In this document: in pieces, positions 23,114 through 55,494 of the stretch
Numbering within the stretch: position 1 is the stretch's first letter
How the letters are laid out: every line of letters starts with the position of its first letter
Position numbers and translations under genes: made by a program
Source of the DNA: Tubulanus polymorphus
Lineage: Eukaryota; Animalia; Nemertea
Reading direction: 5' to 3'
Length of the DNA: 64,000 bases
Assembly (NCBI RefSeq): GCF_964204645.1
Contig: NC_134026.1
Span: 28,678,150-28,742,149, forward strand
The notes under the pieces: model-generated
Seen by the model: the letters and a program-made list of their open reading frames with translations, nothing else
Told to the model about the DNA's origin: nothing
Database searches by the model: none

Positions 23114-23134
23114 ATGCTTCTACAAGTTTGTCAG
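23114..23134 (+). CDS. Candidate alternative first coding exon of PTBP (MLLQVCQ)
   Basis: ATG, 7 codons, CAG|GTAAGC donor in phase 0; the pyrimidine-rich leader shares motifs with the leader of the 12519 exon. Confidence 0.55.
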
Positions 23135-23387: not shown

Positions 23388-26280
23388 CTGTGGCCATCTT
23401 ATATTGAATATAACATCCTGAATGCTTTGTAAAAACCATTCGTATATACACGCAGCATTCACTGGTTTCACTTCTATTTGAGATATACATGTAGTATATA
23501 TATGCATGTATGAACGTGTATATTTATAATTCATACATGTAGGTTATTGTGCTCCTATCACCTAGTTTTACTGTTTATTGAGTCATTAATATGATAGGCT
23601 TGGCAAATTTGTTTTTCGAAAAAGTTATTATTACTTTACGAAATCACGCATTATTTTCAAATCACGTTGTTGTTGTACACGGTCTTCGGAGATAAATTCC
23701 TAAGCGTTTAATCACGGCTATTTCATCTTCATAAACAGTCGGTAATCACTAATTCGACCCTCTCTTTGAAGTCGCTCTAAGTTTTTTTTAATTCGTAAAA
23801 TCGGCTTTATTTTTTTCGCCTCTGGCTCGAGGGCGTAGTCAGTTTTCATATGCGACAGATTGTCACCGGATTTCAAATCAATACCAAACACTTGTCACAA
23901 CGTCATTTACAATGTGTGGCCGTTTAGCTTTTCAATTTCTGTTATTGGATTACTTTGGTTACCCACATGCCGCGTCCTGCCTGCAACACATGACAAACAT
24001 GTGCCACGACTCAAAAACATCTCCCTTCATGGTTACGCTCTATTATGCTCTATTCCCAGAAAATTGTCTTCTATATAAATGCGTTGCGTTTTCATCTCAC
24101 GGAATTGAAGATTCTTGTTTTCATGTCGAACGTTATATTATCATGACATTTTTTAGCGTTCCCAAGTGGAAGTAAGGCTCAAAGCTGAGCAGATGTACAG
24201 AAATGATTATTGTGATTATATCGTCCCATACAGAGCAGCTGGATTGTCATAAAATACAATTAGCGACATCATTTATGTCTATATATTCATATGTAAAAAT
24301 ATGTATATGTTTTTATGATGAATGTGTTCTTATTTTCTGGATGCCAAAAGTCAGAGTTTCTACATAGATAGCGGCGGCGATCGTACAAGCTTTTTCGACC
24401 CGGGCCGAATCTAGCACAACCAATAACGTTAGACCAGACCAAATTTCAGCAAGGATCGTCAGTGAACTAACTGGCACAAGCATAGCATCGTTTTGATAGC
24501 AGTTTAGAAATGAGTGATTTACGTGTAAATGCACTCAGATTTGAAACGGGGGTGTGATCCACTTAGGCCAAACGGGCTCCTTGTGATTGCGGGGCTTATG
24601 TTTCATCATGGTTTCATTTGCGAAAACTTCTGCAAAGCAAGGCAAACAAGTGTGATGCATGTCCTTTGAATTGATAGGGTTGGGGGTCGGCTGTTCATCC
24701 AATTTCATAGCCTGTATAGGATCAGTGGGTATTAACAAATATCGTGATATTCCAGTTATAGAGTTCATCTAATGCGTAGAATGAATATTTGCTGAATTCA
24801 AACATAGAAAATATATGAATATGCCAGCTGCTGGCAAAATTATTAGGTGAAATAGCACAACTGACAGCTGTATTTAATTTCGCCAGCGTTGATGTTGCAT
24901 TTTCTATCAGAGCATCGCACGGGTTTCGAACAAAATGTGTCATTATTATCAGTCTTGGAGAGAGAACCGGGTATCGTTTTGAATCTCATCACTAGTATCA
25001 GGCGACATCTTATATTTCTGAAGTTTTACTCAGTTGTTCGGATAATAGTTCGGTGTCCAACGTTCGCTTTAATCTGAAACCGCTTGCAACCGGTCCCATT
25101 ACTGAAAAGCGTTAGGTGATTATTTTTATGGCAATACAACTCCCGGTGTCTTGAAGGTGAAAGATTACTGACAACTTTTCTGATAAAGCCGGCTTCCTTT
25201 GTGAATTGTCCTTTTTATCTGTTCGTAGAAACTGTAACTTCGAGAAAGATAATGTTTCGTGACGTAAAATTTCCTCGTGTCGTCGTCGAATAGACGGGGA
25301 TTGCCGCACCACTAGGGATTATTAGCTATCAACAAGAATACAGCCCAAAAATGGTAGTTGAACAGCGCAGTAGATCATGTTTCAGAAATTTTTTCTTAGA
25401 TATCAGTAATTCGTGATGAATTAAATCGGAAGTACAATAGATGCCGGCGCGCTTTATCTGAACGTCGATTAGCGATGTTTCGCCCAACTTTTAACTTGGT
25501 CGATTTTATGTTTATAAAACGCATTATGTGAACATTATAATAATCCGTATGTTACGTCATGACGATTCTTTCTTCAGACGCGACATCAGTTTCAATCAAG
25601 ATGTAACAACATAGAAAAATGCCGGGAATGTGTGTTATCACCTGAGTAGTTAAATGTGATGTTTGGAAGATGTGTATATCGATAGGACAGGTGATATTTC
25701 ATAATTGTCACTATCACTGCTTATGTGAAATACCATCTGCCCTATACGCAGTATTTATCTAGGCCAAGTATCTGTATATAACAACGTCACACGATCATAA
25801 TGTGATTACAAATATTCATAATTTAATGCTAGGACCAACATCCGATGGGTCTCTTCAGGGCAAAATGAAATTCTACCAGCAGACCAGACCACTGCACTGC
25901 ACTGGTCTGCAGACCACTTTCCAAAATTTCTGATAAAATTGTGACTGAATTACAGAAATCGCCCTGTTTTGATTCTTTCGGCAAAATTGTGCCTGACAGA
26001 AGTCTCTTTGAGGCCCCTGGATCGACTCGTGAAGCGAGGCGTTGAATGTGATACGGGTATTTGTGAGTCAGTCGGGGATCATCAGAACTTTTTTTCAGAA
26101 ATGTGACACAAAACTGACACCATGTATACACACTAGTGTATGTTCCACGCAATGACATTTAAATGATCCGCCACCTCTCTCTCTCCTGGGAAGGCCGCCG
26201 CAAATATGAAATTCTTCGCGAGTATTACTCATAACTAGTTGATGTAATCTTATGATTCGTTATTATTTTGTGTCTTGTAG

Positions 26281-29200
26281 CGTGGTTCTGAAGAGTTACT
26301 TTCTCAAACTGGCATGGTTGCGAATGGCACTATTATGAGTCCTACACAAACCAATATGGCTGATGTTAATGATGCAAAAAAGGTTAGTATTTTTATCTTA
26401 ACGATATCATCACTTCTTCGAGTCGATTCTTTTTTAATTCTCTGCAGTATTCATTGTCACAATCATATCGGAAGTTGAATTCACAAGAAAAAGCAGATTA
26501 CTTGAAAATGAGTCATTTTGTCATGTATTGTATTGATGTTGATTCTATGGATTGTGCTTCAGCTTCCAGCGTGGTTTTAATCTTCAGTTGTGTGCCCAGT
26601 AACTGTAACTGTGTATTGAACGTATGAATAATGCACGGAAACTTTTATGAAATATTAATTGTTTATAAGCCTCAAGTTTGTTGATTATACCGTGTACATG
26701 TATTCCTCAGTATCTGCAGAATGTATGCCTGAGCATGGGCTGGATATGTAAAACATTCTTTTCTTTAGAATATTAAATTCAGACTCGGAATTCAGTTGTC
26801 TACCAGCGTTTAGTTACTGATTGTTAGACTGATGAATATTCTCTGTGAAGTGGGAAGCGACAATCTCAATAATGAAATGAAAATACAATGTGCTTGCGTT
26901 GTTGATAGTCAGTTTACCACTGGAGACGTGCGTTGGGTTTTTATCGACCACTTAAGGAATTTCAGTATTTCGCAGTCGCGAAACAAATGAAAACAACTCT
27001 TCAAAACATGTGTTTTTATGACCAAGCATGCGTGATATCAGTAACATTCAGCCGATCATTGTCATCAGAGCATGAAAACTTCAGATTAAAACGATTACAA
27101 CCTTTTCTATTGGCCTCATTAAATAGAATGGTTCGTAATTTACATCGTTTGATCCTGAATTTGAAACGAGCACTTCGGCTAGTAGCGTAACAATAAGTAT
27201 AGTTATATAAGTTAATCGAAGCTTGAAATGATCGTCTTTTCTCGAATCAAAAAAGGAATCCCTCGTGGCAAGTAGAGTTGTCATATAAATTTCGGGAAGT
27301 TTCTTGCATAGATATATCCCCGTGCAGACATTTTTGATATTGAAACGATACTTCAAAATTTATTACAAATACATACACTTTATATGGGAAATGAGTTTGA
27401 ACATGTAATGAGTAGCGACTTACACGAAAGGTACGCCGTTACTTCATGAGAACACTTCGCCCTATCGGTTTATTGCCTTGCACTGTCAACTCGTGTTACT
27501 AAAATATTCATAAAAGTGTCCAAATGACTTCATTGCCAATGATACAATATCCTATTGGTGAAGAGTTAATATCCTCTACGTTCGGCATTAGTCTAGAGAG
27601 CACGCCTGACAAAGAGAAATTATACCTGTCACAAATCATCATTTAACTTTGATGCGATCTCATCAGTAAGACAATTAATAAGCCACAAGTCATTGTCGAC
27701 AATGATGAGAAACCACTAAATGCCTGCCATTAGCATCTCATTATTCACCTGAAGCTAAAAAATCCAATCATTCATTCCTGTAATGAAGATACAATAGTGT
27801 CGCGTTTAATGATGGGTGATACAGTTAATGATTCAGTGACACTACAGAAATCAGAAACGGTGTCACGATGAATCGCTCTGTTCTCTGATGTCAATCGAAA
27901 TAGACACATGGTAGAGGTTGTTTCAGAAAGAGTTACTAAAGCTGAAGATGAAAGTTTTTAGATATTAGTTCGAAGTAAGCTTCAGCTATCTATTTTACAT
28001 CTCCTGTTACATATTTTTGATATTATACCTTATTCTCAGAGGTATATGACAATGTTTTTGGAAACGAAACAACTATGAATACAAGTTGTTGCTTCTGACT
28101 GATGTTGATCATGGACAATTTTAACATAGATGCAATTTAGTTTTGTGGTTGTTATATTGCTCCCTGGCGAATTCTGAATTGCTGTGATCTAAGTTTAAAT
28201 TGCTGCAATTAGCACCATCTGATATTGCTTGTGCATCATTGTAATGCAATTTGCTAAAAACCTATAAAGTAATTAGCCAAACTTGAGTGCATTCAGCTAC
28301 ATTTATGGTAGATCCCTACTGACTTGGCTTAAATGTAATGGCAATGTGAGCTAGCATATCCTTTTAGGCGCTCCCATAACTATAATGCAAAATTTGTAAT
28401 ATCTTGATAGATTTGACCTTTTCTCTCCTGTAACAAAATTTGTTCCCCAAATGATGAAGAATATTATGTATGTGTTTTGTAGGTTAAGTTAGACCAGTCC
28501 CAGGCGGGTCCGTCTAAAGTGCTTCATGTGCGAAATGTACCACAGGATGCTACAGTAGCGGATATCGTCATGCTCGGAGTCCCGTTCGGAAAGGTTACGA
28601 ATTACGTCCTTCTTACGAAGAAAGCCCAGGTACGTTCTATGACGATACGTATTAACGTTTAGCTTAATACGGATTAATGTAAAAATGAATGAATTAATCA
28701 ATGTCCGATGTCTCCTGTAAGCAATAACCGAGTAACTGCTAGATAATGGATTTCGTGAATCTCGTTTTACTGATTCCGTAGATATTATCAACTATTCACT
28801 TAGAACTGAAACATCCGGAAAATATAATTCGATGACATTAAATTTGCACGTGTGAAGAAATTTATGGTTTCCGCGATATTAGCAGTCGGCTATAATGAGA
28901 TTTTCAATTTTGATGAATGGCGATGATAATCTATCATATGAATGGTAAATGTAGTCATCTCAGTACTGAAGGTCATTAAAGCTTGTAAAAGGGAGGGGGG
29001 GTTTCAAGAGATTTATCATGATTTGTACCTGGGGTAGTTTCAGTTTCCCGTCTCGAGTGTGAGTGTCTATGAAGTGGATATTACTGGAAGTTGAGCGCGT
29101 ATGAAAATGACCCATGTGCGCCTTCAACTTCATGGTGTAATGATGTATCTTTCGAATTCGATCTGTTTTTCAGGCTTTGGTGGAAATGGAAGATGTACAG

Positions 29201-32200
29201 AAAGCTACTGCTATGCGGGATTATTATACAATGCACACACCTCAATTACGAGGGAAAAACGTCCATGTCCAGTTTTCTAATCACATTGAATTAAAAACAG
29301 ATAGTGCCTCACCACAGGTACCTTTGCATCCTTCTGCTGCCGGTGTCGTAAGTTTCTGCTTCTTGCACGCTATTCCGCCCTACTAACTACTTAAAGTGCC
29401 CGCTAGGTGGCAGTGTCTGCATTTCTGTTGCATGTACACGTTACCGGCGATGTGGTACACGACAAAAAACATTCTCGATTCGGCGTTTTCGACGGCGTTT
29501 TACTGAATTCTGATCGTACTCAATAGAGTGTAACACTGTTTGCTCAATCTGGAACAGCGAGGATAGTCACGCCTCGGTGAACTCTTTACAATCAGTTGAT
29601 TGCCGTTTTAAAGTGTTGAATCTGTGAATGCGTAATTCCCCCGTGCTAACATCCAGTCATTTAGAAAGATAGATAACAACCTGAAACCTCTCCCAATATG
29701 TGGAATTCTTCACAATTCTCTCTCGGTGTAACTGATACTCTGCTGTTATTAATCTTTCTGATGACTTATAAAAAAGACCTTTGAACGAAATGTTTACCAG
29801 TGTTTTTATCTACTTTATAATGATGTCGATAAGTTTATAAGATTTTATTGTGATCATCGGTGGAAACGGATTCTATTATTCAGCTTTGATATGGGATCAA
29901 ATACTACCTGAAAGACAAACTGAAGCCATAGATCTTCTTTGTCTTGTCTTTATATACACTTTGACCATTTATTAATGAAAACATATAAGAAGTCCAAAGC
30001 CTTAATTCGGTCTCTTGGTATTTTTGAGCATAAAAAATCATCTTAATACATACCATAATTCAGTTATCGTAAAATGAAATGTCATTGATAGTAATCATTA
30101 TTGAAAATGACAAATTACTTTAACGTATAATTAGATTTGTGACATGATTAAATCAAGATACTTCATTCTCTACCGCGTCTAACCTCAATAATAATCTTAT
30201 TCCGTTTTTTAATAACGCACAAAGCGTATCAACTTTCATCTCGTGCTGCTGGCCATTAAATAATTTCGAATGACAGGCCGTAAAATGCCGCCGCAATTCT
30301 AAACTTCTTATTACACGTCTATATGAAATAACCAGCATGTATCTGTCGCCCGAGGAATGTTAAACTTTACCTATACCGGTATGTTTGGCTTATGTTTATA
30401 TTCATCTGCTATTGTCTTGGATCCTTACCTCAATCTCTTCCCTACCTCAATATAGTTTTATCTGACATATTGATTAGTTATATCATAAACCGTTAGGTCG
30501 GGTACGGATCACCGTGTCAGCTGTACGTATTTGTCAACCATGTCTCGGAACAATCGCTGTGCTTTTCGTGTCATAAGATTTAATTAAAACTTTTTCGCAT
30601 ATTCCAAATGAACCAGTGTTTAAACTAGTCGAGGAAACAGTAGTGATTGTTGTCAGGGCACTGTATCCACCATCTACGTGTTTTTTCTATGCGTATTAAG
30701 CTCGACACTCTTTGTCATGCGGAAATGTTTGCAGAATAATTGCAACGTAACACCGAGTTTACTTCCTGACATGTGACTACATTACCACCAACATTCTTTC
30801 TAAATCAACAGCTAATTGTAAGCCTCATGGGGACCAGAACAACTACATATCTAGTATCGTTGAATGTAGCGGTTTCATTACAAACTGCGTAAACTTTTTA
30901 AAAGAATTGAAGAATTTAAGTTCTTTTTTTCTAATGTAGAATATGTTTTCTTTTTTACAGAACAATATGACACAAACAGTTTTACAGGCAGCCAATGAAG
31001 TAGTTAGTGATGAAAATAAGAAAACAGTCCTTCGTGTGATAGTTGAACATTTATTGTACCACGTTACAATTGACGTTCTGTATGAGGTATGCAATGAGAT
31101 ATTTTCTAATCCATCCAGTCATGCGCTGTGGTATTCTTCATAAATTCTTTCCATTCTATTCTGTTTAATCCTCGCGTATGTCATGTTGCAGATATTTCGA
31201 AAATTCGGTGCTGTCCAGAAAATAATCACCTTTAACAAAAACAGTATGTATCGTATTTCGTGATTGGAAAAAACGTTTTATCGACGTTCGATGAAAAGCG
31301 TCGTAATAAGTTTTAAATATTCTTTACTTTCAGACACATTCCAAGCTCTTATTCAAATGGCCAACCCTCTTTCTGCGCGTTTAGCAAAAGATGTAAGTAC
31401 CATTATCAGAGTGAAAGTCAAACATTTTTGAGTACTGCACATCTTGACTCATATTGTATCAAATTTAAGGGTTAACATCGAATGTTCCATTAATTCTTAA
31501 ATAGCGGCCATTTTAAAAGCCTCACCGTATCAGCTCTTTAAGTGATGATTTCACAGATGGATTTGCTATATAATCTTTACTGAATTTCAATAGGGTTAAT
31601 CAATGACAAGAGCTACATTTAATGGAGTATATTCTCCTTCAATGCTTCATAGCATGCTCTTAATTTGCGAGGTTTAAAGATTGACGAAGAGTGAATTGTA
31701 TAAGAGTAATCATTGATAGAACTTCGGATGTAACTATACTATATTGATCTGTACAGACGCGCGTTTTGCCTTAAGTTCTATTAATTGGTTCGACAAAGTA
31801 ACTGTCAACAAACTCGAGACGAAATAAAGTGTCGAATTTCCATCGAATTCATATAACTGAAACGAAATTATGTTTTCATACAGGATCTGAACGGTAAAAA
31901 TATTTACAACGGTTGCTGCACATTAAAAATCGACTTTTCGAAACTTAACGCACTGAATGTGAAATACAACAATGAGAAGAGTCGTGATTTCACGAATAAT
32001 AATCTACCGGCTGGCGACATTACGTTAGATCAAGGTGTTGCTGCTTTTGGAAGTAAGTATTTCATGAAATGATGTAGTAACATATACGTATATATATACA
32101 CTCGGTATGTAGCACTTATCATACAATATATCAGTTTCTCGAGAGACTGATAGATTGTCGTATAAATGCACTCAAGTCACAAGTCCTATCACAAACCATT

Positions 32201-35200
32201 TAATTGACAAAGAGATAATTTTGAGGATCGGGAACATTTTCGATACAAGAACATATCATTAGGAGGCATCTACGTAATCGTGTTTGCATGAAATACAATT
32301 ATTCTCCCCGGCTTTACATTTATATCAACTAGGAAAAAACTTTCCCTTCACAACCTCCCATCATAGCAGGCCCTGGGTGTTCAGTATTTTTGCCTCCTCA
32401 GTTGCTTTCTAATTGATTGAGTTTGTACAGCTATTTGTGTAATATTAACTGCTAATGCATCATTGTCCTGTAATGTTATTCGGATACTACCACTACTAAC
32501 CAGATGGTGTTTGTTAATGCAATTAATTCCATGCGGTCACCATTCTCCGTAGAAGAAAAACCGTTCGATCAGCGTTTTTAGTTTTCGACTAATGACGGGT
32601 TTCGGCATGAACCCTTCATAACGTTTCTTTGAAGGCGTATCGAATAATTGATGGGTGGGCCGGGACTTATAGAAAATACAAGTATTCAAACAAGCATTGG
32701 CGTTCTTTTATAATTACAGAACTAGCGATGCATCCTGAGGGTTTTATAAGTAAGTATCCCGGACGACAAGGGACACTCTGTTTTATTGTTAATGTTTTTG
32801 TTCATTCATTTTGTCCATTTCTTCAATTCCATTTTTGTGTGTGATAAACTTCAGAGCACGTTTTGAAGATAAGTTTATCATCGCGTGTTTTCAAAATTGG
32901 GTTTTTTGTACATATCCCTGAATCCCCCTTCACCCGGTGGTTTAACAGTTTAAAGTTTTTCTCTCTATTATTGTCCAGCTGAGATCGAACGTACTAATTT
33001 TTCGAAAAAAACCCAGAAAATAACGATTTCATGGATGAAAACTAAAATTCGATTTTTGTCGATGTTTCTAGATGCTTTTCACGAGAACAGAGTGGGAACT
33101 GTACCCCTTTCGTTCGCTACCTTAATTCGGGGTGACACCGTGATTGGATGAAAGTCTAGGTGATATACGTACGCGATCAATAATACCCATTAGTTCGATC
33201 ATCATTTCTCATTCTGGAGATGGATTGATGATAGCGAAACTATTGTAAATGGATTCCGTGTCAATCCACGATTGACACAACATGAAGTAAATTTCATCAT
33301 TACTCGTAGTTGAATGTTTATTTTCCAACACACTGGGTGCTCTCTACTATCTGATTGATTGTCATTTACACAAATTGTACAACTCTACTCAGCTCTCCAT
33401 CATGGCATACCTGGCGTCACTATAGCAACCAACTTAAATGTCCCGATCTATCATTATTATGTCAACAAATCTCCAAATCTGCGTTTGTTTTCTTTGCTGT
33501 CCCCAGTCTATATTTTACCTCAGCTCGTTACCGTTATAACTCCCTCGGAACTTATCAGTAGTTTCATCAAAGTCTTTGATCGGGCATTTTAGTTCGCTCG
33601 CGTCATTGTCGTGCGCTCTTTTCAGTTGTTCGTCGCGAACAAACACCGTTTGTTTTCGACGCGGATTTATTCATTTTAAAAGATATATTGTATAAAATGT
33701 ATTATAAACATATGTAATCATCATCTTCATCGGTAATGAATAATATAACAATAGTATAATGAAAGAAATATAGTATGAGCAAAGTCACTGTATTGTAAAT
33801 ACTAGCCACAGAGTCGTCGTCTATGAGGATACTATATGCGTCTACTATCAATATCTTATATATTTCCACTTTTATCTTTCTATCTATTCTCTCCTTCCAT
33901 TATCTGATAATAATGTTTTATTACCTTCGTGTTTCTGTCTCTTAAACCTACTCTTTCTATCCGGAACTGCTGTATTATACATTGAATCTATCCAATCTCC
34001 GTCCAACTCTTTTTCTAATTGTCATCGAATCATTGCATGTTTTTGGTTCGTCGCATGTCTCACCTATCACGTCGCTTTCACGATTATCAACTTTTTCTTT
34101 ATCCTGATTTCCGTCTTTTAGTCTATTGGACGTTGCTCATATCCTCTTCACCTGACCGTTGGTCGTCACTATTCGCTGTAGTGACATGATTTATAAGCTT
34201 AATGCTCTGGCTGCGCTCATATTTTTGTAATACACATGACTTTGTGATCGAGATATATTTTTACGGCTTATCTAACTCACTTTGTGGAGCGTGCATGTTA
34301 TATGATATACTAATACTTGGCACGGTATGTTTATAAGGTCCACAGGGTATGCTGGCGTCCCCATTCACCATGCCAGGTTTTGGAGCCACGCCACTAACCG
34401 CCTATGGCGCTGCTGCGGCCACCGCCGGAGGTATGCAAAGGCTTCTTACCATACTTATATTATATCTATGAAAATATATATATATATATCAAAAACTCGA
34501 TTCGTAACATATCTTCGATTGCCTTGACACTTGACTAAACATTTTTCTGGCTTCCAAATGAATTAGATAATGAACAATTGGTTATGAAGTGGTTTCAAGT
34601 TTGCCGAATTATAAAAACATGGCAGATAGATATGTTGCGATGATGACGTGCATGATTATGGTTGTTAAATGTATATATACTATTACTAGTAGAACCACCA
34701 TAACAGATTATAACAATCAAAATCAAATGAAATTTGAAATCACTGAATAATAATTGGTTTTGGTGGTTTCTATTAGTTAATAGAATTACATGTATCCAAC
34801 TCTCTTTATCAATCATCTGATGGCTTCACTTCACTTTCTGTGGTATCTTTTGTGCACTTAAAGAATGATCTATCCATCATCATATTCAAACCATGAACTG
34901 CTTAAGTAAAACCAAGATGATAATAACATATACCTCATCGTAATACGTCATAGAAACACTTTAACTTTCAACGATTTAAACCTTCATTTCAAGTGTTTCA
35001 CATATAAATTACTAAATGGTAACGTGACAGCATACATACTGTACTACACCAACCCTTCCAATTTATCGAGTAATTTTGTTGTCGAGCTGTAATTGTGTCC
35101 CAAGTAGAATACGGATAATTACGAACCTAGAAACCCTTTTTGCATTGCTTCTAAGTGATGTGATTATATTTTTCATGGCACAATATAATCCGGGGCTAAA

Positions 35201-38200
35201 GTTCAGCTACAGTTATTTCGTCATATTTTCTGTGCACATATTTCACTGTTTTCTATGTATTTTATATTACACCTGGGCTATGCTCTATGTCTTGTTTCAT
35301 TATTATATATGTATATATGTTTATTCTGTATCTTTGACTTGCGTTGTGTAATTATTTGACTATTTTCTCGATGTTCTATTCTTCAACTATTTTTTCCACA
35401 TTTAGAGAGGGCAGCACGTCCTCGCGTGGGAATTCGTGGTCAAAAAATCCGTCAGCAATTTCTCTCCAAGTGACAGATACTTCACTAGCCTCAGATATAT
35501 TATGTCTTTCAACTGAGATTGAATGAATATCTTTGTCATGGTTTCGGTGAATTGCGAATGGATTGAATCTTTCCTAGCATCATGCCTATATTCTCGACTA
35601 TTTCTTACTGTGATATTAATTTTCTGCTCCCTGTCTATGTCCAGAAGGAGGTACTGGTTTAATGAATGGAAATCGTTCTGGCCGATCAGCGCCTCTCATC
35701 CCGGGAATACCAAACGGCTGTAAGACTGTGCTTTTCTTAGAGTTCTTATTGTCTTGCTTACTCGCTTCTAATTATTGTTCTGTTCCGCGAACCAGAATAT
35801 CTAATGGTTACTATTAAACTAGATATTTTACATTTGAAATTTTTCTAAATGTTTGCTTCACTTCGACTAATAGTTCACATTTGGAGAACAAGTTCCATTT
35901 CGTTGGAAGTTGAGATTGATTTGGAACTGAACAGCTAGTGCTAATGTTTGCATGGTTTATGGAATGTCTGATCGATTCCCTCTTTAACGCTTTTATGGCA
36001 TTGTGTTTTAATCCAACATCTAGAAAGCAATAAACCTGGTGGAAGAATTACTGGTAGCGAGATTATTTGGACTATTTGCGCATTTAATTTTCAAGCTTAT
36101 TTTCATTAACTAGAAGTAACTATAGTTTTGTAGTATCTTTATAATACCTTTAGTCTAGAAGTAGAAATAGTGAAAGCAAGTGTGCTAGTAATCTCAGGAA
36201 AAAAGAAGTTTGTTTGAGATTTAATGAAAAAAAATACTAATTAATTGATCAGTCATCATAAGTTATACTGAATGATTAGCATAGAACCCCAAAACATTAT
36301 TGCCATAACGTATGTGATGTGCTGCTATGTATTACATGTTTAACCAATGTTTTGTCCAGTTATTTCCCCTTTCCTGTTTTTTTGGAAGTAACATGTCTGT
36401 GTGTGTGTGTGTTGCTTACTAATGCTAAGCATGTTTTCCCTGCTTTGCAGCTACTCATGCAAACCTAGGACATCCTCACCACGCATTACAACAACAACAT
36501 CACGGTACGTTTTCACTTCGCTATTGTATTTATCTCGCACTTCATTCATTCTGAAGGTGGACATTCAAATGTTTGATAAAGCATTTAACTTGATCAAACT
36601 TTTGAACTAGTCAATCTGCATACTGTTGTACATGTCTGATTTTAAGTTTCAATCACTTATACCCCTGTTCATTCAGGGTTGAAATTAATTTACGCCTTAA
36701 GTATCCATACCGTAGGTTTTTTATGGCAATTTCGATAAACGTATCAAAATTGATGAATTTGACAATGTATTTTGTTTGCAGCCTCACAACTCGCTGGAAT
36801 TCCTGGTTTTCCCCACCATGCTGCTGCTCTAGGTGCTGGCTTGCCGATGCCCGGTCAGCAACAGACAGGTCCCGTGCTGCTGGTTTCCAACTTGAACGAG
36901 CAGGTACGATATTCATTTACGTCGTCGGATTTATATGTTGTCAATAGCAAAAGCAGTAATCAGGCAAATCATCATTTTCTAAATGTTAGCCTTTATAGAT
37001 ATGTATATATATGTATATACATTTATATATTTATATAAATATGTATATTATATTGTTTTATATGTGTAAAAATTAATTATTAGACTTCATTACGTGTAGT
37101 AAATATATTATTCATTCTCTTAAAACCATTGATTATGAATGAATTCATTGATAATATGTCTATATTCGTACATACTCGGACAGAAACTCGGGACATTCTA
37201 CATTTATCTACATCACTAGATATCTGTCCTTTAACAATTTTTCATCAGGTGTCACTTGTTTTGAATAATGCCTTCTTTTTATAGAGGATTAAACTAACTC
37301 TGTAATGTTGCATATGAGACTATTCTACTGCTACTGATGGTTGTTCCTGAGATTGTCTACAAATAACTATTATAAATACCGCTTGACAGGACAACCATGT
37401 GTACCCCCTCTATCGAAACAATGTTCAGATAGGCAGATGTAAACTGCCTTTACCGGTTCATAAAAGACCATCGACCGAGTCCCTTCAACAATAGAACTTT
37501 ATAGATGTGTCGTACATAGGAAAAGCGCATGTAACTGTCTACTTTTGCATGACACATATTTTCCTATGGCTCAATGGTTGTACATTATTCTAACCAATCA
37601 GATTTGTTATAAGCCGTTAATGTTTATTTAATCATTAATTGACAAGATTTTCCCTTTTTCTTTTTTTTCCGTCCACTTCGCCTGGCGTTGACCTGAACCT
37701 TTTTCTGCGCTCCTACGCTCTCTCTGCTATGACACTGTTATAGAAGATCACCCCTGACGATCTCTTTACCCTTTTTGGTATGTCATACAGCACTATTTAT
37801 TTCATTTTTCTTATCTATGGTAGTTTTCAATAGGCTAGTCATCGTAAACTACATTCACTTCTTAAATATGCTCTCAAGAAATAGCATAATGTGCTAAAGC
37901 ATGTATCGAGTTGTCTTTGATGTCAAAATATATTTAAAGGAATTCTGATCAATGTTTGCACGTTATGTGACATCGACTAATGCATAGTAAAAAGACACAT
38001 CTGAAAAATGGCTTAATAATACAATAAACTATAACTGCACATTACAATTTACATACATAAAGTCTTGGCTGTGTGTTTGTTCTTAGTTGTTAGATAAAAT
38101 TTCTTTGCACAAGTAAACGATTCTTGGTTTGTCATTGGCTTTTCTTTCAAAACTATTGAATATTAATACGAACATACGTCATATCGTCAGTAATAACAGG

Positions 38201-39619
38201 CACACATTTAACAGCTATTACATTCGGAACTATCTTAGGCTCTCGTTAATTTGTATGATTATTCGTAAAACTGTATGACACTTTTTAACGAACGTTTTCC
38301 GTGACATGTTTTATCAACAGGCGTATATGGGGATGTACAACGTGTTAAGATAATATTCAACAAAAAAGATAACGCACTAGTCCAGTTCGCAGACGCTCTG
38401 CAGGCACAGACCGGTAAATAGTTTCCACTTTCTTCAGTGTCGTATTCAAAATGTTCATCCATTGCTGTCAAACTGATGACTATCGTTTTGTTTTTATGTT
38501 TTAGCATTAACCCATACAGATAAACTAAAATTGTGGGGAAAACAAATCAAAGTAGCTCCATCCAAACATCCTGTCGTCCAAATGCCCAAAGAAGGCCAAC
38601 CTGTAAGTGCTTTATCTGACATGAATCAATTGGTTTGAAGTTAAGTAGTTGATGATTTGATACATTTACGCTCGATTGCTTTCAGGATGCTGGCCTAACG
38701 AAAGACTTTGTGAATTCACCTCTGCATCGGTTCAAGAAACCTAACTCGAAGAACCACCACAACATTTTCCCTCCTTCAGCCACATTGCACTTGTCCAACA
38801 TTCCACTGAACGTCACTGAAGAACAAATTAAAGATGCATTTCAACAAACTGGTGGAAGTGTGGTTGCCTTCAAATTTTTCCCGTAAGTTTTGTAACAGTA
38901 CTCTAGAATAATCGTTCAATATCAAGATGGTATCAGTAAAATGTAATAGATTTGATTCGATTAGTAAGCAATAGTATGAAATATCTATATTCTTCTCTAT
39001 CTGATGCATGAATCATCTACTGGAACGAACCATGCCTCTTTTTGTGCCTGCCGTAGTATATTATGACAGAGAAGTAATTGCACGTAATAAAATGACTTCA
39101 TGAGGCCTCAAACTTCTGCCAACTCTTGATCTCTAAAATGAAATGAATGTCTTTGCATCAGTGTATAGAGGAAAAAAATTAACTAGAAAAGTCTTAAAGT
39201 TACCCAAAAAAAACATTTTTAGAGATGCTATCATTTGAATTGTGTCCATCTTGCCGATAACTATGCAAAAGTGAGCATGTTGCTGGAAGACTTGTACACA
39301 TCTCAATGCATGATTTATATATACTTCTATCATCTCTTCTATCCAACTTGCTGTGTCTAGGGTGACCAAGACTGATGAGTCATCTGATTCCAGAAAGGAT
39401 CGCAAGATGGCGCTCATACAGATGGGATCTATCGAAGAGGCAACACATGCCCTTATTGTGAGTCCAGTATATTAGTATACAACTCTGTTAACACTCTGGT
39501 TCACTAGTTAATCAAACTTGTCTTACGCATTGGTTATTTGATTGTTTTAGGCAATGCATAACTACCAGCTGAGTGATTCAAGTCATCTGCGAGTTTCATT
39601 CTCAAAGTCTACGATCTAG
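26281..39619 (+). CDS. PTBP1: Polypyrimidine tract-binding protein (PTBP/hephaestus), 4 RRMs; core coding exons (start codon lies in an upstream alternative first exon)
   Basis: GT-AG exons with consistent phase: 26281-26382 (RGSEELLSQ), 28483-28629 ([18 protein letters not shown]), 29174-29317, 30961-31086 ([20 protein letters not shown]), 31192-31243, 31334-31392, 31884-32052 ([28 protein letters not shown]), 34338-34430, 36782-36903 (VLLVSNLNE), 37744-37777, 38321-38413 ([10 protein letters not shown]), 38505-38602, 38686-38882 ([23 protein letters not shown]), 39361/39394-39457, 39551-39619 ([11 protein letters not shown]). These are diagnostic PTB-family motifs; the gene is probably a pro-orthologue of PTBP1/2/3. 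Confidence 0.97.
35645..35719 (+). CDS. Candidate 75-nt in-frame cassette exon in the PTBP RRM2-RRM3 linker ([25 protein letters not shown])
   Basis: Pyrimidine tract + CAG acceptor, GTAAGA donor, symmetric phase 1-1, open frame, Gly/Pro-rich like neighbouring linker exons. Confidence 0.65.
36451..36504 (+). CDS. Candidate 54-nt in-frame cassette exon in the PTBP linker ([17 protein letters not shown])
   Basis: GCTAA branch-like motifs + ttttccctgctttgCAG acceptor, G|GTACGT donor, symmetric phase 1-1, open frame. Confidence 0.7.
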
Positions 39620-42510
39620 TTCCATCGGCCTTTAAATGCTTAAAAACAGCAGATCCAGCTTTCCACGTGGCGTCATACATAGGAGTAAGATCTGATGCAG
39701 TACTGAAGAATAGGAAGAAGAAATCAAAATTTGCGCTCAGAAAACAATCATTTTATGCATATAGGAAATAGGATATTAGTTTACGGTCGCTATTAAACAT
39801 CTCCACATTCTGACATTGAGGAATTCTGGAATTTTTAGCCTTGCTACTTACAAAAAAAAATTCGGTTAATGGGATTGTAAATAGATTATAAACGGATAGG
39901 TCTGTCCTGCACACGAACTGTTACAGAAATGGACTGTTATTCATGAAAACGTGTTAAATAAATGATAGCCATTATAAATAGCTGCAATTGTATATTATTA
40001 TATTTTGCATATAATAATCAGTGTAATATTTCTATGAGAACAAAACAAAATATACTGGTGTAACTTGCAGCTATCTCTAGCGAGATAAAAGTTTGTAGTT
40101 TTCACTAGCGATTTGATTTCAAATCATTAATAACATTTTATTTGTTGAACTAAAGCAGTCGACAGAAGTGGTATATTGTTATATAGGAAAAGATTTAAGT
40201 ATATATTATTGACGTCCATATTTTTGTTATATTTTGCAAATAGGATTATGATAAAAAACGGGTGCTTAACTCCGCTTCATCGGGGGTGACCCGAAATATT
40301 TCTGCTGATCGTTTCAATTATTATATGTATATATAGGTATGTAGTGCATACACATAATAGAAGACAGTTCATGTCCAACTAATTCTTAAAGTGGGTCAGT
40401 GATAATTGTTCCCGATGTTTAATTTAGAAATTCACTTGTTCAGAGTCTGTCAATTGTCATCACGAAATGTAGGATTCGGTCATCCTTCATTCGATCATTT
40501 CGATTTGTCCCCCTCGGAGATTGTTGGACATAAATTGTGCATGAAAATTCATCAAAGTTTGGTGAAAGACGTACAATAGATAGTTGTGAATGGATATGGA
40601 TGATTTGTCAATCAGTCGTAGGTGGAAAGCTGGTATAAAGAACAAACATCCCGTTCTACTGCACCAATAGTAGATCTTTTTATAATTCTTATTTTTGCAT
40701 TTGGGTGTTCAGTGTACAAGAAAATGTTTACGATATATGGTATGAATATATATTTTTGCATTTTGAAGTTGTATAAGGATGAAATCAATGGTATTTTATT
40801 ATATATGTCCCTTGCAAGTTCGGCATTCCAAAAGCCTTCGCAGTTTTCTCGTCATCTTATATAAAACCGTTGTCTTTACTGATTTCATTGTGATGGTTAC
40901 CGACGGTAAACCTATACACAGTTTGTTTTGAATTCCATTCAATTTTTAGATATAAAGAAACGCGAGCGTTGATAATGATAATAATAATATTGTGCCAGTG
41001 AAACTTTATTGACTTTAAATGGTTGAAAATGTATTATTAGAAAAACTTGTTGAATCTCATGATAAAGAGAGAGTTTGAGTTGTAATATACCCTTGCGAGG
41101 ATTTTTCCTTGAATCATTGCATCGGTTGAACAACATATTTATTTTTACTTTTAGAAGTTTGTTTTATACAAATCTTGTAATTACAAAACTAGGATATCGT
41201 TTATGAATGAAAAGTTAATCTCTCTGAAACCGTTTAAGTTTCTCAAAACCCTTTGATTTTATTTTGACGATATTCTGATTTCACACAACTGCTTATTTTG
41301 GTCATTTCTAACAGCTGTATGTGTCTTTGTAATGAGGTTTGATGGAAACTTTTATGACACTCGCAGTGTGCGGTGTATCGAACCATCTAGTTGTGATTTT
41401 TTGTGCAAAATTTTGACACTGTGATTATAGGTGATATGTCAGTGTTATACCAGGTGTACTCAGTGTATTTTATCCAGTTTGTTGTTCTCTTATGATTACA
41501 GTTTCTGTCATATTAGTGAAAGTATGTTGTAAACTTGTGTCTTATATTTCCCTAACATCCTACAAATACCATACCAAAATCATTATTCTAACGGTGTTCA
41601 GACAAACGTCCATTCAACTGGGAAAATAATTTTAATGTGGTTAGCATTATCATTTAGTTCGGGGTTATATAGTTGTGTCACAGAACTCTTCAAATCATTG
41701 ATTCATCTTAAACTGTATCTTTCGAAAAAGCTTTTTTGTCAAATTCTAACTTTTCGGATTCTGTCCCTCATCAATCAGTTTTATGTTATTGCGCGGAGAA
41801 CAAACCTCATGGTTGTGAATTTATTGAGAGGTATATGAAACATGCTAACCAAGTAAATTTATTTTTCTAGTCATATTTTTACAATGCGCAACCAGATATT
41901 GAGGAATACACATATGTAAATAATAACCTCAATGCTTTAATAAAAATCGAAGGTTGTGTATGTATATGTGTGTTTTAGGGAATAGCTGCTGCAGTCCTTA
42001 ACAACATAAACCTTGAATTGAAATTCACCATACAAAGTACTTAAAAATAACACTGATTCTGGTCGCTACCTCTAAATTCAGTAAATAAAGCAAACTGCAG
42101 TTTTGATGGTGCTCCTTATATAGGATAATGGGTGTAGTTACATTTCACAGTTGAGTAAAGCGAATGAATTTAAGTCGTCTCTAATTCAATCATGTTCATT
42201 ATTGATTAAGGGAAAATTATGCATAGTCAGAGCCTTTCCACTGTGGAGAAAGATCAGAAAACTGATGAAATATAACAATTTGAAAAAAAATGTTCCATAT
42301 TATAAACCCATTGTGAAGATAAAATGCTTGTTAAGTGCCTAGTTATATTGTTCAATGGAACCATACAGTTTATTATATCTTGTTGGTTTTATGGACAAAA
42401 TTGTATTGTATATCAATATAGATATTATATATACACATATAGATAAGCGTTTATATGATATTAATTTATTTGTATCTCGATACCAATAAAATAATTTAAT
42501 ATATTGAAAT
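39620..42510 (+). other. Probable long PTBP 3'UTR with several polyadenylation signals
   Basis: AT-rich non-coding stretch after the stop; AATAAA at 39957, 41939 and 42485, the last two followed by GT-rich sequence. Confidence 0.5.
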
Positions 42511-46266: not shown

Positions 46267-46608
46267 AACAAAACATCGAAACAAAACATTGAGGGCGTGT
46301 AGAGGGCAGAATTTCCTGACCGACTCTTTGTCTGTTATCCTCGACACGGCGGCGAAGGAGAGCTGACGCTTTCGGACATTAGTTTTGTTCCAGCAAACGT
46401 TGAAATTCGACAGAGAAATCGGCCCTGAAAAACAAAACGGGTTAATTGCTGAAAAATAGAACGGATTAATTAACACGGAACAGTACAGGACAGCACAGAG
46501 ACAAACAGTAACATATAAAACATAAAGACGTCGTTCCTCAGGAAGCAGGAACAGGAGCAGGAGCGGGAGCGCAGCGAAAATCGCCAGGAGGAGAATCCAC
46601 GGTAGCAT
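46264..46608 (-). CDS. Possible orphan membrane-protein ORF or first exon (114 aa)
   Basis: aacATG start MLPWILLLAIFAALPLLLLFLLPEE followed by a second hydrophobic segment; locally GC-rich; CCAAT (46635-46639) and a CRE-like TGACGT (46670-46675) upstream; the stop falls at the satellite edge. Confidence 0.35.
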   Translation of the reverse strand: MLPWILLLAIFAALPLLLLFLLPEERRLYVLYVTVCLCAVLYCSVLINPFYFSAINPFCFSGPISLSNFNVCWNKTNVRKRQLSFAAVSRITDKESVRKFCPLHALNVLFRCFV

Positions 46609-46823
46609 GTTCACAGTGTGAGTAAGCTGAGGTGATTGGTCTATGCTTGTGTACACCGTGGTCAGCCGGTGACGTATTCAATAGCGCGTGTCAGAATGAT
46701 ATCAACAACTCTGAAAACCCGCAATTGTGTCTCTATTGTTGAATGGATTTACATTATGAGGTTCAACCGCCGGGTTGAATACGCGCCAGTAGTCAGCTGA
46801 ACAATATAGTGGAGGAACTTTAA

Positions 46824-47382
46824 TAAGGCCATGAAATAAATTACTTGATTCCCAACAGCTACTTCCGAATTTATAGGCATCCGCCTGTTTTTTTTTCCTT
46901 AAATTCTAGAATAATTTATAAATTATACCGACCGATAGCACTTCCAGTTCAGATTCACACCAACACAGGTCTTCCTATCATAGAAACCGCGTAAACATTT
47001 ACTAATGAAATTAGTTTATTAGTCACGGACAGTTCATGCACCCCGAGTAGTCTAGTACCTAGCCGTTGTTCCTGAACGTTGTTCCATTGTGGGTTTGAGA
47101 ATGGCCCAGAACGAGTGTTATCTTATTTTTCTGGCCGCCCAAATGTTTTTTTCATTTTTACGAGCGGGGGCCCATCCCCCGCTCGTACATTACTAAAACT
47201 AAAACAGCCACCCCTCTTTATAAAATCCTGTATCCGCCCCTGGGTAGTGGGTCGGTCGGTCAGCCATTTTTATCAAAAATTAAATTTATTTCAATGAATC
47301 CAAAAAAATGTTCTCACTCGGTACCTTTGAAGTCAGGTCGGTCGGGTTACGGCAAACAGACCATTATTTTGGGATGGCCTTA
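46824..47382. mobile_element. Degenerate non-autonomous DNA transposon with a nested fragment of another MITE
   Basis: TAAGGCCA...TGGCCTTA termini; internal ACCGACCGA / GGTCGGTCGG inverted motifs; nested end ...CCTGTATCCGCCCCTG at ~47227-47242. Confidence 0.55.
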
Positions 47383-47611
47383 CCACTCATAATTGGAAAA
47401 AACTGATTTTTTCTTTAATTTTGATACTGTATTAAACGGTACATCATCATGTAAATTTAGGAAAGTTCCTTGTCCTTCTATTACTGGTACTTTCTGTCTT
47501 TCATGTTTACAGATTTGAGACCAGGTTAAAATACAACTCTACAACATGTTCACATGTATATTTAAAAAGTTTTATTCTATACACAGTATTTACAAAATAA
47601 TACACCATTCA

Positions 47612-51683
<4,072 letters not shown>

Positions 51684-52195
51684 TTTATCGATAAATATAT
51701 GATGCTAGTAAAGTGCCATGCTGATAAGGGATTTCCCAATAATTGATGTTGCGTTAATTGTTATCGGGGATTCCGTCAGAAATCCGGTACTTTGATTAAC
51801 TTTTATCATCAATCAGGCACACGATATAACGTAAATAAAATTTTCTAATTTTTGAATCGGTTATAATGTTTCAACTAATTCGAGATGAGCAGAAAATTTT
51901 GTTTACACAATGTGGCCACTGGTGTGTGACAAGCCATGCAACATGGCGGGGAAGTCCAAAATTCATTATAAAGCCAACAATTAATAGAAATGTTAATTAC
52001 CATGTTTAACGACAAGTTGTTGAAGTAAAAGCTGTTGAATATAGGTTGGTTTGATATTTCAAGATGACTTCGAAAAGTTTGAAGCAATGAAAAGATTCTA
52101 GAATCATGTTTATTTCGAATGAAAGAGATAGACACAATAATTACCGAAAGAGGTCAGTTTTTAATCGTTTCTGATATTCTTTTTTCAGCCCTGAA
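51684..52195. promoter_or_regulatory. Compact bidirectional promoter/5'UTR region shared by KRI1 and CLCC1
   Basis: Only about 510 bp separate the divergent start codons; contains TATCGATA (51686-51693), GGGATTTCCC (51728-51737) and a YY1-like AACATGGCGG (~51940). Confidence 0.6.
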
Positions 52196-54855
52196 ATGAT
52201 GTTACCTTCGATAAGCTTTGTTTTAACCTGCTGGTTGATGATGGTTTTAGTTACCGCTGAAAGGATACCGACTTTAGACGATATAAAAAGAGTGAAAAAA
52301 GATGATTTTGTCGATCCAAATGATATGTTTAATTATGAACCGAATGGGCTGAAAAAAATCAATGATAAGGTTTGTATCAGTTTTCTGCACGATTCCAGAA
52401 TTAAACTTCTGTGATATTGATTGCTTATGAATTTTGTATTGTAAGGAATTTGTGAAGATTGATGAGACGAACTCAGAAGACATGAATAAGAAATATAGGA
52501 AAGATTCGGCAAAACTTCCATCGGAACAAATCAGCGCGACTGAAAAAGTTGAGAAAGTTTGTCCTGCTGTTGTATCTGACCGTCCATTTTATAAACAGCA
52601 TATCAGATCATTACTGACTCATTTTACAAAAAAGGTGATTATAATCATTTTGATAAGCGCTAGAAGAAGAGTTTTATGTGAAAGCAAGTAATTACAGTGA
52701 AACCTCGTTACAATGAACTTTACGGACCAGAAAATAAGTTCATAATAACCGATAGTTAGTTATGTCCAGTATTGAAATAATTAAATTGTCTTACTTGGGA
52801 CATAATTTTATATTTGTAATACCCGATGAATCACTGTATCTATCAGGAAAATGTTTTGGAAAAGTGCAAACTTTGCCCACGTTGATGAAATGTCTCTCTC
52901 ATTCTGCCTCGTAGCTTGATTCTGAAAATTCACAAGAGGAAATGTCTTACGAACTGATTGTTACACTTTCAAAAAGTGATTTCAACATTCTGCAAAGTTT
53001 TGTCAATAAGGAGTCGGTTAGCATCCAAGATGTGAATTCAGTATTGGGTCAGATGATTCGTCGATCAAAGCCACTCGAAGAAGTTTTCGTTAGTAGATGG
53101 ACTTTTGAAGATATTTTTTTCGGTATCCAATATAAATTAGCTAAGGAAGTAAGTACAGAAATAATCATCACCGCTTTCATAAGACTGAAAGGAAATCTGG
53201 AGCAAATGTTGTTATTTTCAGATAATGATGATAATGATTTTGGTAATTACAACTATCTGTATCGGAACAAGAGTTCAAGTGTCTTGGAGAAGGCTTTTTG
53301 GACACATTGTCATGGTGTGTTTCATAATTAGCATACCATGGAATTGGTTTCATCTCTATAAGGTAAACGCATCAAAAATTCTAAGAAGAGATAGTCTAAA
53401 CTGGTACCGCAACACACCATTTGTAATATCAGGGGCGAATTGAGGGTTGTTTTCAAATTTTCCTGTAATTCTTCAGGAAGTGCATTTAAAATTAGTTTTG
53501 AGTGAGGCATCGTGGATCCGAACCTGAATAAAGCTCATAGCAATTAACATCAAATAAATCTGAAATCCGCGTATGATTTTGATTTCCAGGTGGCTGTTGC
53601 GAAGAGACAGTCAGAAGTGATAAAGGGGATACCGGAGGAATGTCGTCCTAGTGATATGTCCTGGCAGAAATCTATTCTCGGATACTTCGATAGTTTTATC
53701 ACGGTGAAGAAAGGAACTTGTGCGGAATATCATGAGAAGCTTCAGGTCGACCCATTTTGGGAAGTTTCACCACCGCAGGTAATTAATAGTTATATACATC
53801 CATTTAGGAAATTAATGATACCTTGGACTGTTGCTCATTGTGATATAGGACTCCTCAAATGCTTTCAAGCCAAATTATCATTTAACTCGAATACAAATCT
53901 TAAAACCATTGCAACAGAGAATTAAATTCCATTGTCTTAATCAAATTGTGGCCTCACTCGAACAAAAATGGTCTCAAATGATTCAAATTAAGAGGAGTAT
54001 GCTTTGATACAATGAAATGTGATAATTCGAGTTGTTTATAATGAAGTTCCAGTGTAATAATGACTTACTTTACAAAAAAATTCTTATTCAAAAAACCTGT
54101 TACTTGATAAGTAGTTGACATTTTATTCTGATGTTTTTGTTTTTTTAAGGCAGTTGCTGTCAGTATAACGAAATTCATTCTGGAACCTGTGACGCATATC
54201 GGGGAATCGATCAGTAAATTTTTCCGCAGTATTCTGTTACACGTTCCTCCGGTTATGTATCCTGTAGTGATCGGATGTACATTAGTGTGTCTGTTCTTTC
54301 TGTTAATACTGACGTTCGGTTATCGTATACGCCTGCCGTTCTTTATGGGGGCGATTGAACCGACAAAACAAGAACAGACATCATCGAAAGAATTCGTGAA
54401 AGCAATTGAAAGCATGAAAACTGAGGTAATAACTTGTTCCGTCAAGGACTGAAATATTTAATTCTTTACTGCTTAAATTCATTATTTGGAATTTTTTCTT
54501 GCAGATTATTGAATCAGTGCAGCATAGCATGTCTTCACAGAATAAGCTGCCAGCACCAGCCCCAACTCAACCAGCAGCTATTGAAAGTAGGCCAGGTGTG
54601 GAGGATATTGGACCATTAGTTAAAGTTGTAGCCGAACTGAAACATTCACTAGATACTGTTAAAAAACAGCAGCAATTGTACTCAGTTGATAAAAGCAGTT
54701 TGAATGAACCAAACTATTGTGCTATCGACAAGCCGTCCTCCGGTCTCGTAGAAAATGCAGACGATGCTGATAATAAACGGGACACTATTTGTGATGAAGA
54801 TAGTAATGAGGAATGTATCGATGTAATTGGTGCTGGTGATTCTTTAACGAACTGA
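52196..54855 (+). CDS. CLCC1: Chloride channel CLIC-like protein 1 (MCLC family ER membrane protein), 7 coding exons
   Basis: Signal peptide followed by FVDPNDMFNYE (cf. WIDPTDMLNYD); CFIISIPWNWFHLYK; CAEYHEKLQVDPFWEVSPPQAVAV; ILEPVTHIGESISKF plus a TM segment. Exons approx. 52196-52369, 52447-52634, 52915-53148, 53222-53362, 53590-53778, 54150-54425, 54505-54855; AATAAA at ~54889. Confidence 0.9.
52693..52838. mobile_element. Tc1/mariner (pogo/Tigger)-like MITE in a CLCC1 intron
   Basis: TA|CAGTGAAACCTCGTTA...ATCACTG|TA termini with TA duplication. Confidence 0.6.
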
Positions 54856-55372: not shown

Positions 55373-55470
55373 TCGTTCCTAGGAACGAAAAAGATCGAAC
55401 TCAGTCCACTATTGAAACTACCACACAGCCTGAGGGTTGCAAGTTACAACCCTGGGCTCTTTTTGTTTTA
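55373..55470 (+). promoter_or_regulatory. Probable ODC core promoter and 5' leader with a hairpin
   Basis: 16-bp palindrome TCGTTCCTAGGAACGA at 55373-55388; TCAGTC Inr-like motif at 55401; stem-loop 55427-55458 followed by a T-rich tract. Confidence 0.45.
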
Positions 55471-55494
55471 AAGTTTCCCTTTTAACCCTTCAGC

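What the first reader, a model, noticed from the sequence alone, without database searches (positions are those of the whole stretch)
37647..37777. 34-nt frame-shifting PTBP exon behind a 95-nt AG-free CU tract: conserved autoregulatory AS-NMD switch
Seen: exon 37744-37777 ([12 protein letters not shown]) is exactly 34 nt and is preceded by a CU-rich region with no AG from 37647 to 37741. Skipping it joins 36903 to 38321 and creates TAA at 38351-38353, upstream of several later junctions. Known: vertebrate PTBP1 exon 11 and PTBP2 exon 10 are 34 nt at the same RRM3 position, and their PTB-induced skipping triggers NMD. Inference: the negative feedback loop predates vertebrates and works in this invertebrate.
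Basis: partly seen in the sequence, partly recalled or inferred. Interest (0 to 1): 0.75.

Follow-up and report, generated by a model that had tools for sequence, protein, structure and literature searches.

The report
Ribbon-worm PTB self-limiting splice switch
This ribbon-worm gene for the splicing protein PTB has a 34-base exon whose loss puts an early stop in the message; the protein likely forces that loss itself so that the message is likely destroyed, a feedback switch already shown in mammals and in the nematode C. elegans.

Summary
The gene is PTB of the nemertean Tubulanus polymorphus. The headline inference, that the loop predates vertebrates, is already in print: C. elegans ptb-1 has the same 34-nt exon, skipped under PTB-1 control and degraded by NMD (PMC4876481). 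This locus likely works the same way. In 42 clusters of orthologous exons (window included) the AG-free zone has median 164 nt, against 27 at other PTB acceptors. A 19-nt intronic element behind the donor is identical in an annelid-like locus. RefSeq isoform X6 lacks the exon, but lands in frame on a second acceptor (38350) and would escape NMD. An unnamed Logan protein carries the frameshifted skip tail. Against: no 36903->38321 joint among the joints listed for two spliced runs, and the matching PTBP3 exon shows no EST evidence of skipping. PTB dependence and NMD are untested here. Verdict: new member of a known kind.

The parts
26281..39619 (+). Coding exons of the PTB gene (four RRMs), from the RGSEELL exon to the stop; alternative first exons lie further 5'
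   Evidence: 16 exons give an open 551-aa frame; exon 38686-38880 is 100% identical to RefSeq Tubulanus polymorphus PTB isoforms; spliced joints in X2 and X5
36782..36903 (+). Upstream exon, ending in RRM3 beta1 ([11 protein letters not shown]); phase-0 donor
37633..37643 (+). Predicted distant branch point candidates (A at -106 and -102)
   Evidence: consensus-like heptamers directly 5' of the U-rich block; not mapped
37647..37741 (+). 95-nt AG exclusion zone, 76% pyrimidine; U-rich block 37647-37672 at its 5' end; CUCUCU at 37718-37725
37686..37692 (+). Second branch-point-like heptamer (A at -53); human PTBP1 has one at -51 whose mutation had no effect
   Evidence: PMC1431707 passage
37744..37777 (+). 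34-nt frame-shifting exon (start of RRM3 after beta1), with UCUCUU at 37761-37766
37778..37783 (+). Donor GTATGT; GTAYGT in 35 of 42 orthologous exon clusters against 3 of 44 control donors
37789..37807 (+). Conserved downstream intronic element AGCACTATTTATTTCATTT, function untested
   Evidence: 19 of 19 identical in L076, 20 of 22 in L019, also L061, L035, L075
38321..38413 (+). Downstream exon (93 nt)
38348..38350 (+). Second acceptor (AG 38348-38349, exon start 38350); joining 36903 to it removes 63 nt (21 aa) in frame
   Evidence: RefSeq isoform X6, P0124, reads NLNEQ|IIFNKK; it is the first AG after 38321
38351..38353 (+). Premature TAA in the skip frame

Best explanation
This is the 34-nt RRM3 exon of the nemertean PTB gene, and skipping it places a stop 60 nt before the next junction; PTB likely binds the pyrimidine tract and exon to cause the skip, and NMD likely removes the skipped message, making a negative feedback loop. 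Steps shown by sequence or calls: exon, frame shift, stop, long AG-free zone, conserved flanks, and an annotated isoform lacking the exon. Steps inferred from vertebrates and C. elegans: (1) the exon is spliced from a distant branch point near -102/-106 with the adjacent U-rich block as its polypyrimidine tract, which makes it weak; (2) high PTB occupies the CU-rich stretch between branch point and exon, and the UCUCUU in the exon, and represses inclusion; (3) the main skip product 36903->38321 is degraded; (4) a minor share slips to the next AG at 38349 and would give a stable message for a PTB lacking 21 residues of RRM3. The loop is most simply inherited from the common ancestor of protostomes and deuterostomes.
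For: The same exon is shown to be self-repressed and NMD-sensitive in C. elegans (PMC4876481) and in human cells (PMC1940037). AG-free zone at orthologous exons: median 164 nt, 30 of 42 at 95 nt or more, against median 27 and 3 of 54 at other PTB acceptors of the same loci; longer than every control in 28 of 29 paired loci. After collapsing by hand into 20 groups, it is longer in 13 of 13 groups with controls. The best U-rich 20-mer lies in the 5' quarter of the zone in 21 of 30 long zones, window included, the distant-branch-point layout mapped for human PTBP1. The downstream intronic element is shared with annelid-like loci (6 of 41 clusters at p<=0.02 against shuffles). Donor GTAYGT is in 35 of 42 against 3 of 44. 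RefSeq X6 lacks the exon. Unnamed Logan protein P0364 ends NLNEQ|ASMVMSYG, the frameshifted reading of the next exon.
Against: No 36903->38321 joint among the joints listed for the two spliced runs. One search listed 10 joints for 34200-40200 with none marked hidden; one search hid 14 rows; contigs drop rare forms, so this is weak. The only skip form on record for this gene is in frame, and its RNA support could not be seen. The zone (95 nt) is far shorter than in human PTBP1 (381) and PTBP2 (438), below the ortholog median, and only 15 nt above the next acceptor of the same gene. Six of 20 groups have a median under 95 nt, so the layout can be lost. The homologous PTBP3 exon shows no EST evidence of skipping. 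Upstream sequence similarity to other animals was mostly not above shuffles (1 of 41; 2 of 41 in a post hoc retry). No PTB binding, PTB dependence or NMD was tested in any lophotrochozoan here.
Confidence: 0.78

Rival explanations
1. The exon is near-constitutive in this animal. Its 34-nt size only reflects two ancestral intron positions, and the flanking signals serve efficient inclusion of a short exon or are relics, as for vertebrate PTBP3.
For: Only inclusion joints were listed. [quoted passage not shown] The zone is short for this exon family, and 280 of 289 fetched proteins carry the exon's peptide.
Against: RefSeq X6 lacks the exon. A 19-nt intronic identity with an annelid-like locus is hard to keep without selection. 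NMD-sensitive forms are not expected in contigs or protein sets (inference).
Confidence: 0.12
2. The exon is regulated, but the output is a protein switch rather than decay: skipping is coupled to the acceptor at 38350 and makes a stable PTB lacking 21 residues of RRM3, with weakened or dominant-negative RNA binding.
For: This is the only skip form annotated for the gene (P0124). The AG that allows it (Lys codon AAG) is present in 20 of 26 loci with the next exon.
Against: It was seen in 1 of 289 proteins fetched up to and in no other species. The site has no pyrimidine tract of its own. The deletion removes core RRM elements, so a misfolded product is likelier (inference).
Confidence: 0.05
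3. The exon is an AS-NMD switch, but it is controlled mainly by another RNA-binding protein acting through the conserved downstream element (tissue or developmental control) rather than by PTB itself.
For: The best-conserved non-coding sequence is the A/U-rich element behind the donor, which is not a CU-type PTB site. Canonical UCUU/CUCUCU sites in the tract are few.
Against: Self-repression is shown in both mammals and C. elegans, and the two controls are not exclusive.
Confidence: 0.05

Closest known systems
C. elegans ptb-1 exon 11 autoregulatory AS-NMD (Tomioka et al. 2016, PMC4876481; section 11 and passages read)
   Same: 34-nt cassette exon in RRM3 of an invertebrate PTB gene; skipping shifts the frame to a premature stop.
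   Different: There skipping, NMD (smg-2; PSI 77.6 to 65.2) and loss of skipping in the ptb-1 mutant are shown; here they are inferred. The text read describes no flanking elements and no in-frame second acceptor.
Human PTBP1 exon 11 and PTBP2 exon 10 (PMC1940037 and PMC1431707, passages and supplement 2 parts read; Wollerton 2004 not held, known only through these citations)
   Same: Same position and length, long AG exclusion zone with a U-rich tract at its 5' end, branch-point-like site near -50, GTATGT donor as in PTBP2, stop in the next exon.
   Different: The zone is 95 nt against 381 and 438; the predicted branch point is near -102/-106 against -351 (mapped) and -389 (predicted). No paralog was found in the searches made, so cross-regulation between paralogs is not expected (whole genome not held).
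Human PTBP3/ROD1 exon 10 (PMC1940037 passage)
   Same: The homologous RRM3 exon.
   Different: [quoted passage not shown]
SRSF5 unproductive splicing conserved across animals (Lareau and Brenner 2015, PMC4379411; passages read)
   Same: Precedent for an AS-NMD switch in a splicing-factor gene kept across animal phyla.
   Different: There an alternative exon of an SR-protein gene triggers decay; here loss of an essential coding exon of an hnRNP gene would.

Membership tests
PTB/hnRNP I family | Four RRMs with PTB-type sequence | tested here: met
   100% match to RefSeq PTB isoforms; phmmer hits to solved PTBP1/PTBP2 RRM1, RRM2 and RRM3-4 chains, E 5e-60 to 4e-21
PTB exon-11-type AS-NMD switch | 34-nt exon at the start of RRM3 after beta1, phases 0 and 1 | tested here: met
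PTB exon-11-type AS-NMD switch | Skipping gives a premature stop more than 50 nt before a later junction | tested here: met
   TAA 38351-38353, 60-452 nt before four junctions
PTB exon-11-type AS-NMD switch | Extended AG exclusion zone with a distant U-rich tract | tested here: met
   95 nt, first of 19 acceptors; U-rich block at the 5' end; shorter than in vertebrates
PTB exon-11-type AS-NMD switch | Distant branch point actually used | not testable with these tools
   candidates at -106, -102 and -53 only
PTB exon-11-type AS-NMD switch | Frameshifting skip isoform exists in RNA | tested here: inconclusive
   not among the listed contig joints (no raw reads offered); in-frame skip in RefSeq X6; frameshifted skip in an unnamed other organism
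PTB exon-11-type AS-NMD switch | Skip isoform is degraded by NMD | not testable with these tools
   needs UPF1 or translation inhibition
PTB exon-11-type AS-NMD switch | Skipping depends on PTB level | not testable with these tools
   needs a minigene or knockdown; UCUU/CUCUCU motifs present (motif identity recalled)

The most novel reading that the evidence does not exclude
The PTB feedback exon is run by a cis-module as old as Bilateria: distant branch point, GTAYGT donor and an uncharacterised downstream element (GCACT...TTTATT). The element is letter-perfect over 19 nt between a nemertean and an annelid-like animal and still recognisable in insect-like and vertebrate PTBP1/2-like loci. It marks a second, unidentified regulator of PTB levels, and the ribbon worm adds an in-frame escape acceptor that turns part of the decay output into an RRM3-broken protein.
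Probability: 0.25. Interest if true: 0.55.

Novelty: new member of a known kind. Interest (0 to 1): 0.3.

Why it matters
The loop is known from deuterostomes (mammals) and ecdysozoans (C. elegans); this would add a lophotrochozoan case. It gives a compact version of the element (95 nt instead of about 400) that is easy to dissect in a minigene. The comparative set points to specific bases to mutate, above all the element at 37789-37807, which may also matter for mammalian PTBP1/PTBP2 exon control. It does not change the age or logic of the circuit, which is in print.

Tried and rejected
No whole genome is held, so paralog number and genome-wide acceptor statistics were not tested. No RNA holder was listed and no raw reads; X2 and X5 turned out to be spliced contigs, X1 unspliced, and X6 a diverged relative. 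Contigs of X2 cover parts of both introns beside the exon, but contig depth cannot rank parts, so nothing is drawn from it. By-eye matches to human introns (a TTGAC near -52, a TACGCT at -30 as in PTBP2; supplement of PMC1431707) were not supported: alignment of the window's upstream tract to the vertebrate-like loci scored below shuffles (L001 p 0.96, L018 p 0.93). A post hoc retry with softer penalties gave 2 of 41 at p<=0.05 (L019, L061), about the number expected by chance. Selection for an early stop: the Val codon before Lys is not enriched for stop-making codons (17 of 26 against 38 of 66, p 0.64), and 6 of 26 loci have no stop inside the next exon. Third-position pyrimidine excess in the exon (182 of 270 against 169 of 318) is not phylogenetically independent and is not relied on. 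There is no unusual RNA fold (z 0.13) and no Rfam family (one chance hit). The viral-contig scan found 0. No in-frame skip was found in other species (1 of 289; 0 of 28); one search returned only 10 hits. Literature searches without an invertebrate case; two searches found the C. elegans paper. A C. elegans microarray table lists a ptb-1 event with no PTC and no smg-1 effect (PMC2265522); which exon is not stated in the passage. No structure or complex prediction was run.

Full report
1. Observation. The exon 37744-37777 is 34 nt, with acceptor TAG and donor GTATGT, and AG is absent from 37647 to 37741. Sixteen exons from 26281 to 39619 give one open frame of 551 residues; leaving out the 34-nt exon gives the tail [10 protein letters not shown] and TAA at 38351-38353, 60 to 452 nt before four later junctions. 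Contigs of two spliced runs from two studies show both inclusion joints. In the window 0.9% of AG-to-AG gaps reach 95 nt and only 3 regions are as pyrimidine-rich. Among the gene's 19 acceptors this one is first in AG-free length, pyrimidine share and C count, though the next longest is 80 nt.

2. Identity. One downstream exon is 100% identical to RefSeq PTB isoforms of the nemertean Tubulanus polymorphus, and the protein matches solved PTBP1/PTBP2 domains. No whole genome was held.

3. Is the exon skipped? The 36903->38321 joint is not among the 10 joints listed, nor among those shown (14 rows hidden). Only contigs were available, which drop rare forms. Of 19 Tubulanus isoforms fetched, one, X6 (P0124), reads NLNEQ|IIFNKK. 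It lacks the exon and also the first 29 nt of the next exon, so it joins 36903 to 38350, the first AG after the normal acceptor. This removes 21 residues in frame and would escape NMD. That the model rests on RNA evidence is my inference from how RefSeq isoforms are built; I could not see it. The form was found in 1 of 289 proteins fetched. A search of short PTB relatives gave 120 listed proteins, 28 with the RRM3 beta1 motif. One of them, Logan protein P0364, ends NLNEQ|ASMVMSYG, the frameshifted reading of the next exon (compare the skip frames). It is at most about 55% identical to the named PTBs among its 25 best hits, and its taxon is unknown. So the frameshifting skip occurs in at least one further organism that is not close to the named PTBs compared.

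4. Comparative architecture. A pattern for AG + 34-nt PTB exon + GT found 85 metagenome loci, all with the PTB peptide. Twelve have no intron after the exon and were set aside; 73 genomic loci fall into 41 clusters, 42 with the window. The 34-nt length is built into the pattern, so these data cannot count lineages that lost an intron. The AG-free zone has median 164 nt (30 of 42 at 95 or more), against 27 nt (3 of 54) at other PTB acceptors found by pattern in the same loci. It exceeds every control in 28 of 29 paired clusters; pyrimidine share is 0.65 against 0.55; the donor is GTAYGT in 35 of 42 against 3 of 44. A few control calls are probably wrong (values of 1-2), and 3 of the window's 14 other donors are also GTAYGT. 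One annelid-like clade supplies 9 clusters, so I collapsed the set by hand into 20 groups from the tree and identities. Fourteen groups have a median of 95 or more, and 13 of 13 with controls are longer than their controls; 26 of 38 non-vertebrate-like clusters reach 95. Six groups have short zones (medians 12-86 nt), so the layout is common, not universal. In 21 of 30 long zones the best U-rich 20-mer lies in the 5' quarter, as for the mapped distant branch point of human PTBP1 exon 11 (-351, zone 381 nt; PMC1431707 passages). In the window the candidates are A -106 and A -102, directly before the U-rich block.

5. A conserved downstream element. Bases 37789-37807 are identical over 19 nt in L076, match 20 of 22 in L019 and match in L061, L035 and L075. 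These loci are nearest to annelid proteins (L035, L075 and L076 on 42-55 residues only). Six of 41 clusters score at p<=0.02 against dinucleotide shuffles, and the window's 16 other donors reach at most 29 against 38 and 34. A looser motif chosen after seeing the data occurs in 12 of 42 against 0 of 44 control donors, in 7 of 20 groups, including 2 of 4 vertebrate-like and the hymenopteran-like locus, but 0 of 9 in the clitellate-like clade. Upstream similarity was mostly not significant (1 of 41; 2 of 41 post hoc; alignment).

6. Mechanism. Shown: exon, frame shift, stop, zone, conserved flanks and one annotated isoform without the exon. Inferred: splicing from a distant branch point; PTB binding between branch point and exon and within the exon (UCUU/CUCUCU sites; motif identity recalled); dose-dependent skipping; decay of the 36903->38321 product; minor slippage to 38350. 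Confidence 0.78. Rivals: a near-constitutive exon like PTBP3 exon 10 (0.12), a protein switch through the in-frame acceptor (0.05), and control by another factor through the downstream element (0.05).

7. What is known. [quoted passage not shown] Tomioka et al. 2016 (PMC4876481; passages, section 11) found the 34-nt exon 11 in C. elegans ptb-1, showed stabilisation in smg-2 and loss of skipping in the ptb-1 mutant, and remarked that role, position and size are conserved with mammals. Cross-phylum AS-NMD has precedent in SRSF5 (PMC4379411, passages). Passages of PMC7706725, PMC3856098, PMC4978528, PMC10551640 and PMC2265522 added no invertebrate case. Wollerton 2004 is not held and may discuss invertebrates or the downstream element. 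Nine answered searches surfaced no lophotrochozoan case in the listings and passages seen, and the listing showed no paper on the downstream element. Subscription papers and splicing databases were not searched, and supplements of the C. elegans paper were not read.

8. Verdict. The feature is real and the interpretation likely right, but it is a new member of a known kind. The additions are a lophotrochozoan instance, the wide conservation of the distant-branch-point layout, a conserved downstream element and an in-frame escape acceptor. The scan's own notes held nothing on this sequence or place. Interest 0.3.

Noticed in passing
window 32720-32749, 34338-34430, 35645-35719, 36451-36504: Four frame-preserving cassette exons (30, 93, 75, 54 nt) in the RRM2-RRM3 linker are used in many combinations (joints; RefSeq isoforms), parallel to the alternative linker exon 9 of vertebrate PTBP1.
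   Followed up: partly
window 39361 and 39394: Alternative acceptors in RRM4 add or omit 11 residues ([11 protein letters not shown]) after FKFFP; the long form is in X2 and X5 contigs, both are in RefSeq, and human PTB lacks the insert.
   Followed up: partly
window 33828-34119: The longest AG-free stretch of the gene (292 nt, pyrimidine-rich) lies about 220 nt before linker exon 34338; it may be a PTB-binding or distant-branch-point region, or precede an unannotated exon at 34122.
   Followed up: no
window 35213-35475: A 191-nt AG-free zone ends at an acceptor-like AG (35404-35405), followed by a short in-frame reading that ends in TGA; a possible poison or terminal exon in the linker, with no joint seen.
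   Followed up: partly
window 12519-12557, 23114-23134, 24193-24216: Pieces matching different RefSeq N-termini (100%, 100% and 75% of short stretches): the gene has several alternative first exons.
   Followed up: no
L002, L005, L011, L016, L022, L023, L028, L052, L067 (flanks of the 34-nt exon): A clitellate-like clade lacks the window's downstream element but has its own conserved flanks on both sides, with zones of 139-285 nt: possible turnover of elements with the layout kept.
   Followed up: partly
L049, L060, L017, L027: Orthologous 34-nt exons with ordinary short AG-free zones (12-37 nt): candidates for loss of the switch.
   Followed up: no
window 46267-62769: Open frames of 133-192 residues, mostly on the minus strand, belong to other genes beyond PTB; not identified.
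   Followed up: no
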